Source: Eledone cirrhosa (taxonomy: Eukaryota). From it: a DNA stretch of 64,000 bases. The position numbers and the translations under genes are program-made. The DNA is taken from NCBI GenBank assembly GCA_964016885.1, contig OZ024743.1, positions 328,600,001-328,664,000 on the forward strand, read 5' to 3'. The notes under the pieces are model-generated. The model worked only from the letters and a program-made list of their open reading frames with translations. It searched no databases and was not told the DNA's origin. This document shows, piece after piece, positions 6,122 to 54,460 of this stretch; position 1 is the stretch's first letter; every line of letters begins with the position of its first letter.

Positions 6122-7125
6122 TATATATATATATATATATATATATATATATATATATATATATATATATATATATATATATTAGGTAGTAACATGTGCT
6201 TACACCGTATAGCCGTTTCTAAACAAAGAAAGCCTGTTTTGTGTCTCCCTATTTATATGCATATATATATTCAAAATAGGGAGCGCATGGGACAAAGACA
6301 CTGGGAAAGAAACACCACAACATATATATATATATATATATATATATATATATATATATATATAGAGAGAGAGAGAGAGAGAGAGAGAGAGATAGTTAGA
6401 TAGATAGATAGATAGATAGATACGGATAGATAGATTAAATAGAATCGAAGTCAGTTTTGCAGCCTATGTACAGACTTTATTGACATATTACAATTGTTTC
6501 GATATCGATCATCTCAGGGTATATATATATATATATATATATATATATATATATATATATATATGTTTTATGATTTAGTGTTGAAGAATAAAAACTAAGA
6601 TAAAATAAAAATATATCTTAAAAAATGAGTCCCCTGAGGATGTGTCTCCCTAAGCTATAGCTTATTTATCTTGTAGGTAAGTGCACCAGTGGGTATTCCA
6701 TATACTTGAACAAAACACTACGGTTTACGTTGTTTCAGACCACACAGCTGTAAAGTTAATATCACCAGCAATGGCTGGGAGTTACCCTGCAATGGACTGG
6801 CGTCCCGTTCAGGAGGTGAAGGAAATTTGAGCTTCTATGCTTTATTTTAAAGGTAACTCAACAAAAGAAGAGAAGCTAGTGAAATACAGTATTATAAAGT
6901 GACACCACATCCAAACCAACACTCCACGCATCTCTCATAACTCATTCATCTTGTTATAATGTGATATAGTGGATAAAGAGTGGTCGTTGTCGTTTATATA
7001 AACAATACAGGTTTGTATAAATATTTCGTATCTCCAAAGAAATACAGTTTTAGGAAGCCGTAGCTATGCAAACACCGGGGGGGGCTAACGCCCTCTGGTG
7101 ATGTCCAGCAGAAGCAAGGGGGACA

Positions 7126-7169
7126 ACCGTCTATGCATTTCAGGCTTAACTGGCCTTCGTCAGGACGGT
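7126..7169 (-). ncRNA. Minimal type I hammerhead ribozyme
   Basis: accgtc-CTGACGA-aggc-cagttaa-gcct-GAAA-tgca-TA-gacggt. Perfect 6-bp stem I and palindromic stem III. Confidence 0.9.
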
Positions 7170-7208
7170 CCCTCCCACCACTTGCGACTGCTGGACTAGA
7201 AGACAGCT

Positions 7209-7264
7209 GAGAAAATATAGTTTTCTCGTCTGTGTAAATGAGGTGATTAATCTCATTTGCATAT
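7209..7264 (-). promoter_or_regulatory. Candidate snRNA-like promoter: octamer ATGCAAAT (7255-7262) and a TATA within a palindrome (7209-7227)
   Basis: Motifs seen directly. Same order and spacing as in family R2. Promoter function is inferred. Confidence 0.45.
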
Positions 7265-7464
7265 GAAGCTGCATAAGTTGGCTCAACTTATAATAAAAAA
7301 GAAATAGGATTTCGCTTCAAGCATAGCTTTATACAATATGTATAAATATTTCGTATTTCCAAAGAAATACGGTTTTAGGAAGCCGTAGCAATGCAAACAC
7401 CGGGGGGGGGGGGGGGGGGGGGGCTAACGCCCTCTGGTGATGTTCAGCAGAAGCAAGAGGGACA

Positions 7465-7508
7465 ACCGTCTATGCATTTCAGGCTTAACTGGCCTTCGTC
7501 AGGACGGT
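7465..7508 (-). ncRNA. Minimal type I hammerhead ribozyme (second tandem copy)
   Basis: Identical to 7126-7169. Confidence 0.9.
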
Positions 7509-7633
7509 CCCTACCATCGCTTTGAAACAGACAGCTGCTCCCCAATATACACGAATAAGGAAATACACACGTTTATATGACCTTACCTGAATATACACAC
7601 ATGTATATACAACAGAGTATATATGTATATATG

Positions 7634-7731
7634 TGTCCCCCCCAAAATATATACACACTTCAACAGCATTCTAATAAATATTGCCTTTACAGGTAATCAA
7701 AGTGTGTATGCATTTTTTGTGATACCTTGTA
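7634..7731. mobile_element. Small Tc1/mariner-like MITE remnant
   Basis: gtgtccccccaaaatatatacacactt ... aagtgtgtatgcattttttgtgataccttgta form imperfect TIRs. Confidence 0.4.
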
Positions 7732-8289
7732 TATATAAATATATATATAGGTGTCTCTGTGTGTGTGTGTATGCATGTATACATACATACATACATACAC
7801 ACATACATACATACACATACACATACACACATCCAAATTATACGCTCTTCTGCGTCTGCCCGTATCTCTCATGTATACGTAGGTCTGTGTGTCCATGTGC
7901 AAACTATATATTTACTATGTCTGTCCGCCCGTCTGTCTGTCTGTATGTCGATGTAACGGTGTATACATGTATAAATGTTCCATCTGAAAATTGTTCCTTT
8001 ACGGATGTTAAGCCGCCCTACCAAGCATGACAGCTGACTATGGCATACTACAGTCGGATGACTGGCGCTTTATAATGATATATTGCATACCTTGTCTATC
8101 GAATTCATCTCGCTTCACCAACTCTTAACGTAACTACGCGCATGTATGTATATATATATATATATATATATATATATATATATATATATATATATATATA
8201 TACACACGTATGTATGTATGTATGTATGTATGTATGTATGTATGTATGTATGTATGTATGTATGTATGTATGCATGTATGTATGTTTGT

Positions 8290-51370: not shown

Positions 51371-51479
51371 CGTTTTATATAAAATGTCGGTGTCTTTCAA
51401 TAGAAATAACAAACAATGCATGACATAAATATTATAATAGAAAAGGTTAGTTGTCTGTTGTATGGTGTTATAATAATAA

Positions 51480-51620
51480 CTGTTTCTACTTTAGGCACAA
51501 GGCCAGCAATTACCCAGTGTATTACTGGTACTTTATTTTATCGACTCCGTAAGGATGAAAGGTAAAGTTAACCTCGGCAGGATTTGAACTTAGAGCATAA
51601 AGGGCCGTAACTCAATGTAT
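51480..51620 (-). mobile_element. SINE family A, 5'-truncated
   Basis: Family A consensus. Confidence 0.75.
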
Positions 51621-51792
51621 AAAGAAGAAGAAGAAGAAGAAGAAGAAGAAGAAGAAGAAGAAGAAGAAGAAGAAGAAGAACAACAACAACAACAACAACA
51701 ACAACAACAACAACAGTAATAGTATTGATTTATTTATTAATCACATTGGGTTCATTTTGAGAAAACAATAAGGACGGCACAAAATAGAACGT

Positions 51793-52778
51793 TGAGTGTG
51801 TGTTAGTGTGTGTGTGTGAGAGTGTGTGTGTGTGTGAGTGTGTGTGAGAGTGTGTGTGTGTGAGTGTGTGTGTTTGTAAGTGTGTGTGTGAGTGTGTGTG
51901 TGTGTGAGTGTATGTGTGTGTTAGTGTGTGTGTGTTAGTGTGTGTGTGAATGTGTGTGTGTGTGTGTAAGTGTGTGTGTGAGTGTGTGTGTGTGAGTGTG
52001 TGTGTGTGTGAGTGTGTGTGTGTAAGTGTGTGTGTGAGTGTGTGTGTGTGTGTGTGTGTGTGTGTGTGAGAGAGTGTGTGTGTGTGAGTGTGTGTGTGTG
52101 AGTGTGTGTGTGTGAGTGTGTTTGTGTGTTAGTGTGTGTTAGTGTGTGTGTGAGTGTGTGTGTGTGTGTATGTGTGTGTGTGAGTGAGTGTGTGTGTGTA
52201 AGTGTGTGTGTGTGTGTGTGTGTGTGTGAGAGTGTGTGTGTGTGAGTGTGTGTGAGAGTGTGTGTGTGTGAGTGTGTGTGTTTGTAAGTGTGTGTGTGAG
52301 TGTGTGTGTGTGAGTGTATGTGTGTGTTAGTGTGTGTGTGAGTGTGTGTGTGTGTGTGTAAGTGTGTGTGTGAGTGTGTGTGTGTGAGTGTGTGTGTGTA
52401 TGTGTGTGTGAGTGTGTGTGTGTAAGAGTGTGTGTGTGAGTGTGTATGTGTGTGTATGTGTGTAAGTGTGTGTGTGTGAGTGTGAGTGTGTGTGTGTGAG
52501 TGTGTGAGTGTGTTTGTGTGTTAGTGTGTGTTAGTGTGTGTGTGAGTGTGTGTGTGTGTAAGTGTGTGTGTGAGTGTGTGTGTGAGTGTGTGTGTGAGTG
52601 TGTGTGTGTAAGTGTGCGTGTGAGTGTGTGTCTGTGAGTGTGTGTGTGTCTGTGAGTGTGTGTGTGTGTGTGTTAGTGTGTGTGTGAGTGTGTGTGTGTG
52701 TATATGAGTGTGTGTGTGAGAGTGTGAGTGTGTGTGTGTGTCTGTGAGTGTGTGTGTGTGTTAGTGTGTATATGTGAG
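51793..52778. repeat. ~1-kb interrupted (GT)n array
   Basis: Direct reading. Confidence 0.95.
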
Positions 52779-52959
52779 GTCGTGTGGGTTTTGTGTGGAC
52801 ACAGGTTTAACAATAATAAAATAGGGAGGTAACAAATTTATAACAAACGGTATTCCTCAACAGGAAGGAGAGGTTTGGGGGCCACTCGTGACCCCCTTCC
52901 CCTATAAAACCACGGTTGCCGGGACTGCTAGGTTAAGGGCCTTCTCTCAGTTCTTCAGC

Positions 52960-53760
52960 TCCCATTTATAAGTGTATATTCAGGGAAGTGCCGCTCACCC
53001 AGACCATCCTCGCGACTCCCATCCACCTTTCAAATAGCTGGAAGACCCTATTTCTCTCTTCACCATTGTTTCTCTCTTTAAGTGAAACTTAAAAAGGTTG
53101 ATGAGGGATTGGCCAAAGAGGAAAGTGTTTAATTTCAGTCCTTTCAGTCACGTTTACCATACAGCTTCTTTCACCATGGCCACCAGACATATAAAATCTG
53201 CTTGTCTTCTTATACTAAAAGAAGGCGGCGGGGCAATCTTCACGATGCACTTAGCTGAAAGCCAGATGTCCAACAGATGATAATAGCTGTTCGACATAAA
53301 CCCACAAGTCTGCAACGTACGAACACTGGATGAGTGCGTGCAAGAAGGTTTCGTCACCTTTCGTGCATCTCGGACTTGCAAACCCGCTACGGTCCTCGGT
53401 AGAACTGCCAGGCCAAGGTTTTCTAAAAGTTATCCATCTGCCCCGAGCCGAATGTTCCCCAGAAGAGAGCGGCAAGGGTCTCCTCAAAGTACAGTAGAAT
53501 GCGGAAGTAGATGACGGTGGAAATATACTCATTGACCACAACAACTCGATCTTTCGGGAATAGTCTCCTCTCGGCCCATTTCTGAGTGAGAGTGGTTACC
53601 CTGCTCATTAACGTGTGCCAGGTTTTGTTCACCTGGATATCTGGACCAAACTCGATCCTGAACAACTTAATCGGCCCAACTGTTCAAAGTCCAGCGACGC
53701 TGTTTGACGGCTTCTCCATGTGCCGATCCACAAGCCCACCTACATTTCCTGGCTAATTTG
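52960..53760 (-). pseudogene. Tx1/L1-clade LINE C-terminal remnant
   Basis: FGPDIQVNKTW...KWAERRL...RVVVVNEYI, and PRCTKGDETFLHALIQC (degenerate CCHC). Confidence 0.65.
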
Positions 53761-53854
53761 TGCTCCTTTGGGCGTCTTTTATTATAGCCTCGGGATGACC
53801 AATGCCTTATGAGGGAAATTTGATAGGTGGAACGTATAAAGAATCTCGTCGTGT

Positions 53855-54460
53855 ATATATACACACCTTCTGATGAAGACCCAACTAGGTCCGAAAAGGT
53901 GTTTATAAATGTATCCAATTGACAGGCAAATTCCTATTTTCTGGCATGTTTACATGTCTACAGATTAAAAAAAAAATGTGTATATTTATATACACAATGG
54001 TACAGTCTCGATTACCCACTTTGTATATATACAGATATAGCTTTATCGTACACTTCAGCTGTTTAGCGCGTATCTCAATATGTATCTCAATTAACTACTA
54101 ACACGAGTGCTTATTATACACAAATTAGTATATCCATTTCAAGATACTACTCAGAGCGAACGGGTATATAAACCCATCAAATGTGTTTCCTTGTAGTTGT
54201 TTAAATGATATACACACCTTTTGATGAAAATCCATATAAACCCATCAAATGTGTTTCCTTGTAGTTGTTTAAATGATATACACACCTTTTGATGAAAATC
54301 CAACTACGTCCGAAATTCAATTAAAAGTGTTTATCATTTTTTCCATTTACAGGGAAATTTGTATTTTCTGGCATGTCTACATATTAAAAAAAAAAATGTG
54401 TATATTTATAAACACATTGGCGCAGTCTTGATTACCCACTCTGTATATATACAGATATAA
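53855..54460 (+). mobile_element. Degenerate retrozyme-like tandem (family R3), ~351-bp period plus a 68-bp internal duplication
   Basis: acacctt-CTGATGA-agacc-caacta-ggtcc-GAAA at 53863. Repeats with TTGATGA at 54221 and 54289; downstream ~150 bp duplicated. Confidence 0.6.

What the first reader, a model, noticed from the sequence alone, without database searches (positions are those of the whole stretch)
7014..54460. Three unrelated retrozyme-like families share one octamer - palindromic TATA - hammerhead cassette
Seen: on the HHR-sense strand, R1 has ATATGCAAAT (octamer 7255-7262), then ~36 bp to gagaaaaCTATAttttctc, then ~53 bp to the HHR core. R2 has ATATGCAAAT (16653-16660; 28702-28709), ~35 bp to gaaagTATATActttc, and ~41 bp to the core. 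R3 has a degenerate ACACAAAT (54118-54125), ~39 bp to gggTATATAaaccc, and ~51 bp to the core. The families otherwise show no similarity I can see. Established: non-LTR retrozymes are short tandem non-coding units with type I HHRs that yield circular RNAs, and newt satellite 2 is transcribed from an snRNA-type promoter containing an octamer. Inference: these are self-transcribing, self-cleaving RNA elements carrying a compact octamer+TATA (U6-like) promoter inside each monomer and mobilised by PLE RT. I cannot confirm this is unreported for this taxon.
Basis: partly seen in the sequence, partly recalled or inferred. Interest (0 to 1): 0.9.

Follow-up and report, generated by a model that had tools for sequence, protein, structure and literature searches.

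The report
Retrozymes carrying host U6-type promoter
Tens of thousands of short protein-free repeats in this animal genome carry a predicted self-cutting RNA, preceded by the same two DNA signals found in front of the host's own U6 genes, so they likely switch themselves on and are likely pasted around by Penelope-type jumping genes; no transcript was seen.

Summary
R1, R2 and R3 are dispersed, non-coding 325–484 bp units with a type I hammerhead. All three family majorities read TATGCAAAT(T/G)AG, then a TATA box 43–48 nt on, then the ribozyme; R3's window copy has decayed. The octamer-to-hammerhead pattern occurs 31,061 times genome-wide against 2 for the control.

The same 12-mer (exact or one mismatch) sits at −77 to −79, with TATA at −30, in the host's U6, U6atac and MRP genes. 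It is absent from U1, U2, U5 and RNase P. In an unbiased 1.06 Mb sample it precedes 14 of 108 hammerheads, all in short tandem families. Insertions show Penelope marks: fixed 3′ ends, tails, inversions and (TA)n flanks.

Best reading: non-LTR retrozymes that captured a gene-external U6-type (probably Pol III) promoter, carried along because the ribozyme, not the start site, defines the copied RNA. The polymerase is unresolved and transcription is not shown. Self-promoted hammerhead repeats are known (newt, schistosome), so this is a new variant. This scan noted the same cassette before on other pieces of this genome.

The parts
7014..7522 (-). R1 insertion, about 1.5 units of a 325-bp monomer (unit positions 81 to 250, counting from the octamer)
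7471..7502 (-). R1 upstream type I hammerhead core (its own promoter is not included in the insertion)
7295..7300 (-). R1 T6 run, first T4+ run after the predicted start site; candidate leaky Pol III terminator
   Evidence: role inferred
7252..7263 (-). R1 12-mer TATGCAAATGAG, identical to the element at -77 and -78 of a host U6 gene and the MRP gene
7209..7227 (-). R1 TATA box in a hairpin (predicted start near 7189)
   Evidence: start site predicted
7132..7163 (-). R1 downstream hammerhead core; 7-bp stem I, palindromic stem III (ATGCAT); predicted cut after 7132
14884..16142 (+). 3' part of an abundant Penelope-like element (RT plus C-terminal GIY-YIG, hammerhead-like motif at 15941, no octamer) ending in the (TA)n tract that R2 abuts; candidate helper class
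16265..17039 (-). R2a insertion, 1.8 units of a 431-bp monomer with 3' tail (unit positions 54 to 397)
16973..17003 (-). R2a upstream hammerhead core
16704..16709 (-). R2a T6 run (repeated in the tail at 16273-16278)
16650..16661 (-). R2a 12-mer TATGCAAATTAG, identical to the element at -78 of a host U6 gene
16608..16623 (-). R2a TATA box in a perfect 16-bp palindrome (predicted start near 16588)
16542..16572 (-). R2a downstream hammerhead core; palindromic stem III (ACTAGT), U-U at the base of stem II
17054..17234 (+). Inverted 5'-truncated R2a copy without tail (Penelope-type head-to-head structure)
28286..28711 (-). R2b subfamily insertion with tail; 12-mer 28710-28699, TATA palindrome 28657-28672, hammerhead 28621-28591
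28712..29017 (+). Inverted 5'-truncated R2b copy with hammerhead 28737-28767
53857..54462 (+). R3 insertion, old decayed copy of a ~355-bp monomer with an internal 68-bp duplication
53870..53902 (+). R3 upstream hammerhead core lacking stem III
54117..54128 (+). R3 decayed 12-mer (family majority TATGCAAATTAG)
54162..54175 (+). R3 TATA box in a hairpin, 48 nt from the 12-mer as in the host U6-type genes
54289..54321 (+). R3 downstream hammerhead core, damaged; T6 run follows at 54337-54342

Best explanation
These are non-coding hammerhead repeats with Penelope-type insertion marks whose units carry the host's U6-type upstream 12-mer and TATA box, which likely act as a Pol III promoter for an RNA that is predicted to cut itself and would be copied back by a Penelope reverse transcriptase. 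Steps: (1, shown) each monomer runs 12-mer, TATA, short leader, type I hammerhead, folded body, T run, spacer, next 12-mer. (2, inferred) In a copy or array holding promoter 1 through ribozyme 2, the host U6-type machinery starts about 30 nt after the TATA box. (3, inferred) Most transcripts stop at the T5-T9 run; those that read through are cut at successive hammerheads, probably as dimers because stem III is a short palindrome. The released monomer now contains the promoter sequence. (4, inferred) A long stem I extension holds the two ends together for ligation into a circle. (5, inferred from the scars) A Penelope RT/endonuclease primes at one of two fixed sites at a (TA)n target and copies past the cut site, often from both target strands, giving partial tandems, a tail at one end and inversions. 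A gene-external promoter, which an ordinary SINE would lose, thus travels with the element.
For: Pattern count 31,061 vs 2. The 12-mer or a 1-mismatch form lies at -77 to -79 with TATA at -30 in 5 of 6 distinct Pol III type-3 upstream regions (three U6 types, U6atac, MRP; not RNase P) and in 0 of 13 U1/U2/U5 upstream regions. It precedes 14 of 108 hammerheads in 1.064 Mb: 12 of 16 R2, 1 of 2 R1, 1 of 1 R4, and 0 of 89 in the other 21 clusters. None of 53 checked non-octamer hits showed a short tandem unit (no positive control run). It is absent from 30 of 30 3' regions of a hammerhead-bearing coding PLE. It is shared by units with no clear similarity elsewhere and is the best-kept segment of old R3 (0.91 vs 0.76-0.85 for flanking segments). 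TATA+30 lands on a pyrimidine-purine step in R1, R2a, R2b and R3, as in 5 of 5 host genes. The first T4+ run after that point is 5-9 long in 8 of 9 units. Circular monomers fold with z -6.7 to -11.8. 54 of 63 R1 segments end at one of two sites, and 23 of 30 R1 loci are head-to-head. 5' ends do not pile up at the cut site (1 of 122) or the start site (0 of 122).
Against: No transcript, start site or cleavage was observed. Octamer-to-TATA spacing is 41-46 in R1, R2, R4, R5 and R6 vs 47-49 in host genes. TATA+30 is not a pyrimidine-purine step in R4, R5, R6 or R7. The host RNase P gene, which ends in a T9 run, has no octamer but the TCAGT element of U1/U2/U5, and R5 carries both, so motifs alone do not fix the polymerase. 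The T-run avoidance test is weak (p 0.07-0.55 per unit), and the T runs also pair in hairpins. A strong terminator inside each unit works against monomer production, worst in R3, R7 and R8, where it lies about 50 nt after the core start. Only 10 of 122 segments span promoter 1 to ribozyme 2, none in the window. R1 and R2 copies are too alike for column conservation to be informative. The R3 hammerhead core columns scored only 0.67 in the same alignment, so those figures depend on alignment depth. No PLE sharing 3' sequence with these units was identified. In the 2026 preprint only 1 of 9 predicted Xenopus retrozymes cleaved in vitro.
Confidence: 0.5

Rival explanations
1. The cassette is a real promoter but recruits Pol II, as reported for newt satellite 2; long read-through transcripts are cut into monomers and the T runs are only structural.
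For: Host U1/U2/U5 genes also have a TATA-like box at -30. R5 has a strong U1/U2/U5-type element (14.3-14.7 bits in 2 of 3 copies scored). Spacing in R1/R2 differs from host U6. Pol II would not stop at the T runs. Newt precedent (PMC2220036, PMC6765202 passages).
Against: The 12-mer is in 0 of 13 Pol II snRNA upstream regions. R1, R2 and R3 do not match the U1/U2/U5 element (scores -6.0 to +0.3, p 0.27-0.94). That element also occurs at RNase P.
Confidence: 0.27
2. The motifs are kept for RNA folding or RT recognition, or are relics of one ancestral capture; the elements are transcribed only by read-through from host or PLE promoters.
For: The 12-mer and TATA lie in predicted hairpins. Most copies cannot make a monomer from their own cassette. 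Spacing has drifted by 7 nt among families.
Against: Stem sequences elsewhere change freely while pairing is kept, yet the 12-mer stays letter-identical across families and identical to host promoters. Coding PLE ends, handled by the same enzymes, lack it.
Confidence: 0.17
3. The units are merely 3' UTR/pLTR fragments of longer coding Penelope elements.
For: Same insertion anatomy and ribozyme type. Xenopus retrozymes are related to pLTRs (10.64898/2026.07.22.740005). The tblastn linkage test had little power: 9 of 108 hits were linked, with 4 queries.
Against: Units join head-to-tail with themselves: R1, R2 and R5 tandems, and R4 arrays of about 30 units. 1 of 19 hits in the three octamer clusters had a PLE ORF piece within 1.5 kb upstream. 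Origin from a pLTR remains likely; being a current fragment does not.
Confidence: 0.06

Closest known systems
Metazoan non-LTR retrozymes (Cervera and de la Pena 2020, PMC7229834: passages and Discussion read; Li, Clavereau and Pollet 2026, bioRxiv 10.64898/2026.07.22.740005: part 1 of 5 and passages read)
   Same: Short non-coding tandem units with a type I hammerhead, dispersed, predicted highly folded circles, co-occurring with PLEs.
   Different: Neither main text describes an internal promoter: 'octamer' 0 hits in both; 'promoter' 0 and 2, both T7. No cephalopod terms. Their RNAs and circles were shown for coral, mussel and axolotl; here they were not. Supplements were not seen.
Newt satellite 2 (Coats, Zhang and Epstein 1994; paper not held; known through passages of PMC2220036 and PMC6765202)
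   Same: Hammerhead repeat with an internal snRNA-type promoter.
   Different: Reported as Pol II. Here the element matches the host's U6/U6atac/MRP genes, includes a TATA box, and recurs in at least five families. That the newt promoter holds an octamer is recalled and comes from no call.
Schistosome Sm-alpha/Sj-alpha hammerhead SINE-like repeats (passages of PMC6765202 and PMC2220036; original not held)
   Same: Pol III promoter followed by a hammerhead; the promoter ends up at the 3' end of the cleaved monomer, so tandems are needed to propagate.
   Different: There the promoter is tRNA-type and gene-internal (recalled); here it is a gene-external type-3 element.
EN+ Penelope-like elements and their pLTRs (Craig et al. 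2021, PMC8557442, passages; PMC6765202, passages)
   Same: Partial tandems, inverted 5'-truncated copy, tail at one end, (TA)n targeting, minimal hammerhead with palindromic stem III, promoter supplied by the upstream repeat.
   Different: PLEs encode RT and GIY-YIG, and the host PLE ends examined lack the 12-mer. Tails here are about 47-56 nt vs 30-40 quoted.
Small-RNA-promoter TRIMs Cassandra, Helenus, Ajax (PMC10886601, passages)
   Same: Non-autonomous retroelements that captured a host Pol III promoter into a terminal repeat.
   Different: LTR-type, with internal 5S or tRNA promoters; no hammerhead figures in the passages read.

Membership tests
Non-LTR retrozyme | Type I hammerhead in each short repeat unit | tested here: met
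   Core, stems I-III and UH present in R1, R2a, R2b, R4 and the R3 majority; R3 window copies are damaged
Non-LTR retrozyme | Short tandem units, dispersed and multicopy | tested here: met
   Units 325, 431, 484, about 355, 466 and 443 bp
Non-LTR retrozyme | No protein coding, no LTR/PBS/PPT | tested here: inconclusive
   Units are too short for an RT. PLE ORF pieces in the family loci lie outside the units. PBS and PPT were not searched for
Non-LTR retrozyme | Self-cleavage and circular RNA monomers | not testable with these tools
   Only folding predictions
PLE-mobilised element | Partial tandem plus inverted truncated copy, tail at one end, microsatellite target | tested here: met
   23 of 30 R1 loci inverted
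PLE-mobilised element | Specific autonomous partner sharing 3' sequence | tested here: inconclusive
   Two PLE groups are abundant; no shared 3' end was identified
Host Pol III type-3 (U6-like) promoter | Upstream element as in host U6, U6atac and MRP | tested here: met
   Identical 12-mers
Host Pol III type-3 (U6-like) promoter | Element-to-TATA spacing of 47-49 nt | tested here: inconclusive
   Met in R3 (48); not met in R1 (44) or R2 (43); tolerance unknown
Host Pol III type-3 (U6-like) promoter | No early T4+ run, oligo-T terminator | tested here: inconclusive
   Pattern present but p 0.07-0.55 per unit
Host Pol III type-3 (U6-like) promoter | Pol III-dependent initiation about 30 nt after TATA | not testable with these tools
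   Needs 5' mapping and inhibitors
Host Pol II snRNA promoter (U1/U2/U5; newt satellite 2 type) | TCAGT-type element 26-27 nt before TATA | tested here: not met
   R1, R2 and R3 score -6.0 to +0.3 vs 7.4-19.0 for held-out host genes; met only by R5

The most novel reading that the evidence does not exclude
Several retrozyme lineages independently captured the host's gene-external Pol III promoter. The hammerhead and circular RNA step is what lets a promoter lying upstream of its start site be retrotransposed, creating a SINE-equivalent driven by a U6-type promoter and seeding over 30,000 such promoters through the genome.
Probability: 0.25. Interest if true: 0.78.

Novelty: new variant of a known kind. 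Interest (0 to 1): 0.52.

Why it matters
Animal retrozymes are reported to be highly expressed in all tissues, but the two main papers name no promoter. This genome offers a precise, mutable candidate: a 12-mer, a TATA box and a predicted start base in several families. It makes three questions directly testable: how these elements are transcribed, by which polymerase, and why they need a ribozyme (to carry an external promoter). It also defines a compact host U6/U6atac/MRP promoter (octamer-like word at -78, TATA at -30) distinct from the U1/U2/U5/RNase P type, which could serve for small-RNA expression in this animal group. The logic of promoter then ribozyme in tandem is already described for newt and schistosome repeats, which caps the surprise.

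Tried and rejected
Rfam scan of the window: only microsatellite-driven miRNA matches in the 150 rows shown of 267. The repeat finder was swamped by simple repeats.

Expression: no RNA holder listed. Four runs of unrecorded kind from one study were laid on R1 as contigs only; this says nothing on expression. Whether run X4 is RNA remains open.

My idea that R1/R2/R3 carry a U1/U2-type element was rejected by a weight matrix. My idea that the tail ends at the Pol III terminator was dropped: tails run 6-8 nt past the T run in R1 and R2, and R3's tail has no T run. Pile-up of 5' ends at the cut or start site was not found (1 and 0 of 122). That set is biased to near-full-length copies, and short low-complexity R2 pieces, segments under 45 nt or under 88% identity, and segments without a canonical 3' end were dropped first.

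Hoped-for shorter spacing at RNase P: it has no octamer. Of 20 U6 loci, L134 and L135 lack the element at -78 and at least L127 and L133 have it displaced by an insertion. Seven more U6-like copies and 7 of 8 U6atac loci lack it and look like retrocopies; they were left out of the promoter set. The 13 Pol II and 5 Pol III promoters were hand-picked distinct representatives. R6, R7 and R8 are single decayed copies and only tentatively families. One of 7 rows was mis-sliced.

Three primary papers were not held. Seven literature searches listed no report of a U6-type promoter in retrozymes or of cephalopod retrozymes; the library lacks most subscription papers. Look-up of R2 by sequence among earlier notes gave nothing.

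
Full report
Setting. The window lies in a 3.0 Gb animal assembly, G000:C4:328600001-328664000, AT-rich and full of microsatellites. Earlier scan notes call the animal an octopus; I did not test the taxon.

Observation. R1 (7014-7522, minus) is 1.5 units of 325 bp. 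R2a (16265-17039, minus) is 1.8 units of 431 bp with an inverted truncated copy at 17054-17234. R2b (28286-28711, minus) has an inverted copy at 28712-29017. R3 (53857-54462, plus) is a decayed copy of about 355 bp with a 68-bp internal duplication. All three are dispersed families: 2048, 1839 and 1613 first-look candidates, 40 scored each, with best other copies 94-98% identical for R1, 96-99% for R2 and 73-81% for R3. Majorities over 30 loci each show ATATGCAAAT(T/G)AG in all three, exact in 27, 27 and 17 of 30 loci. The ribozymes are type I hammerheads with 6-7 bp stem I and a palindromic stem III; R2a and R2b differ by changes that keep pairing. The R3 copies in the window are damaged.

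More than chance. The pattern octamer, 75-105 nt, core, GAAA has 31,061 genome matches vs 2 for the control; the 100 listed show further families, including 466-bp arrays of about 30 units. In an unbiased sample (window, 200 kb beside it and 16 blocks of 50 kb; 1.064 Mb) a structural descriptor found 108 hammerheads vs 1 on reversed sequence. They fall in 24 clusters. An octamer (up to 1 mismatch) lies 75-125 nt upstream in 12 of 16 R2, 1 of 2 R1 and 1 of 1 R4 hits and in 0 of the other 89. Those others look like 3' ends of longer Penelope elements: no short tandem unit in 53 checked, without a positive control. The cassette therefore marks the short tandem class, not hammerheads in general.

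Host promoters. Two U6 genes read TATGCAAATGAG at -77 and TATGCAAATTAG at -78, the U6 array TATGCTAATTAG at about -79, U6atac TATGGAAATTAG at -78 and MRP TATGCAAATGAG at -78, each with TATA at -30. U1, U2 and U5 (16, 16 and 20 loci fetched; 13 distinct representatives used) lack it within 130 nt; one U1 locus has an octamer at -399. They have AATTA near -90, TCAGT near -57 and a TATA-like box. RNase P has the TCAGT type, no octamer and a T9 end; PMC4287351 (passages) reports Pol III signals at the RNase P genes of two molluscs. By gene type the 12-mer is in 3 of 4 Pol III and 0 of 3 Pol II genes. Spacing from 12-mer to TATA is 47-49 in the host, 48 in R3, 44 in R1, 43 in R2, and 41-46 in R4-R6. 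R1, R2 and R3 do not match the TCAGT element; R5 does. TATA+30 falls on a pyrimidine-purine step in R1, R2a, R2b, R3 and R8 but not in R4-R7. The first T4+ run after it is 5-9 long in 8 of 9 units, but T avoidance is not significant per unit.

Relatedness. Outside the cassette and core, R1, R2 and R3 align no better than z 0.3-4.7, vs 16-56 among R2a, R2b and R4. They are unrelated or very old relatives; independent capture is not proven.

Palindromic TATA. TATA-centred hairpins fold at -4.6 to -10.3 kcal/mol in R1, R2a, R2b, R3 and R4, weakly in R5 and R6, and at 0 to -4.3 in 18 host promoters. Whole circular monomers fold with z -6.7 to -11.8. The dyad is best read as RNA structure laid over a promoter.

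Mobilisation. 54 of 63 R1 segments end at unit 250-259 or 290-309; R2 ends cluster at 341 and 397; 23 of 30 R1 loci (two pairs overlap) are head-to-head, usually with the tail on one arm; flanks are mostly (TA)n. This is the anatomy described for EN+ Penelope elements in PMC8557442 (passages). 5' ends are scattered, 1 of 122 near the cut site and 0 of 122 near the predicted start, in a set biased to long copies; 10 of 122 segments span promoter 1 to ribozyme 2. The template was thus usually not a start-initiated or once-cut linear RNA, which fits a circle or an uncut multimer. A hammerhead-bearing PLE with a GIY-YIG domain is abundant (41,091 candidates; Pfam), lacks the octamer in 30 of 30 3' regions and abuts R2a in the window. 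A second PLE type also occurs. Which one helps is unknown.

Mechanism. Shown: anatomy, copy number, identity with host U6-type elements, insertion scars. Inferred: promoter activity (about 0.77), Pol III rather than Pol II (about 2 to 1), leaky termination, dimer cleavage, circles, PLE enzyme. None of the window's copies could make a monomer from its own promoter; long arrays are the likely sources.

Comparison. The class is known (PMC7229834: passages and Discussion; bioRxiv 10.64898/2026.07.22.740005: part 1 of 5 and passages). Neither main text describes a promoter; supplements were not seen and could list cephalopod families. Internal promoters are reported for newt satellite 2 (Pol II, snRNA type) and schistosome repeats (Pol III), with the same need for tandems (PMC2220036, PMC6765202: passages; originals not held). 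My searches listed no report of a gene-external U6-type promoter in retrozymes. Earlier notes of this scan reached the same idea on other pieces of this genome; I had stated my reading and seen the U6 match before opening them, and do not count them as support.

Verdict. Real, abundant and well specified; a new variant of a known kind; function untested. Interest 0.52.

Noticed in passing
window 2449-4320 (-), with hammerhead-like end near 1550: Open 624-aa frame of a Penelope-like RT with C-terminal GIY-YIG-like region (no Pfam hit); related pieces at 12245-12782, 20131-20515, 31955-33733 and 42143-42371.
   Followed up: partly
window 15941, 19187, 26513, 31378, 35525, 35649, 38583, 48179, 50358, 54529, 57719: Many further minimal hammerheads without the octamer, apparently 3' ends of other Penelope families.
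   Followed up: partly
window 35791-37692 (-): 634-aa open frame with RVT_1 (E 8e-30), a LINE-type reverse transcriptase.
   Followed up: no
L103, L285, L300 (family R5, 443-bp unit): Carries three 33-bp repeats each with an octamer or near-octamer plus a TCAG-like word, then a U1/U2/U5-type element and TATA: a hybrid promoter. An inverted R5 piece precedes a U6atac copy in L197.
   Followed up: partly
L283, L284 and R3 family: T5-T8 run at the same place, about 50 nt after the core start, in three divergent units; would give a roughly 80-nt ribozyme-only RNA if Pol III stops there.
   Followed up: partly
cluster C2, e.g. near G000:C4:328593312 (+): A hammerhead family with a CCAAT box and TATAAATA about 35 nt before the core: a possible mRNA-type Pol II promoter in another element.
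   Followed up: no
L352 (RNase P) vs L121, L122, L123, L193, L201: The host appears to use two small-RNA promoter types: octamer-word plus TATA (U6, U6atac, MRP) and TCAGT plus TATA (U1, U2, U5, RNase P); Pol II snRNA genes have a TATA-like box.
   Followed up: partly
L127, L133 (U6 array on C19): Some array copies have a ~190-bp insertion at the TATA box that separates it from the upstream element.
   Followed up: no
L135 at -275; block L222-L226: The 12-mer also occurs in another repeat; a related copy lies upstream of a cluster C1 hammerhead in reverse orientation.
   Followed up: no
window 19910-22163 and 40350-43098: Several 92-98% identical copies of a 1.5-2 kb repeat in inverted arrangement, with PLE protein pieces.
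   Followed up: no
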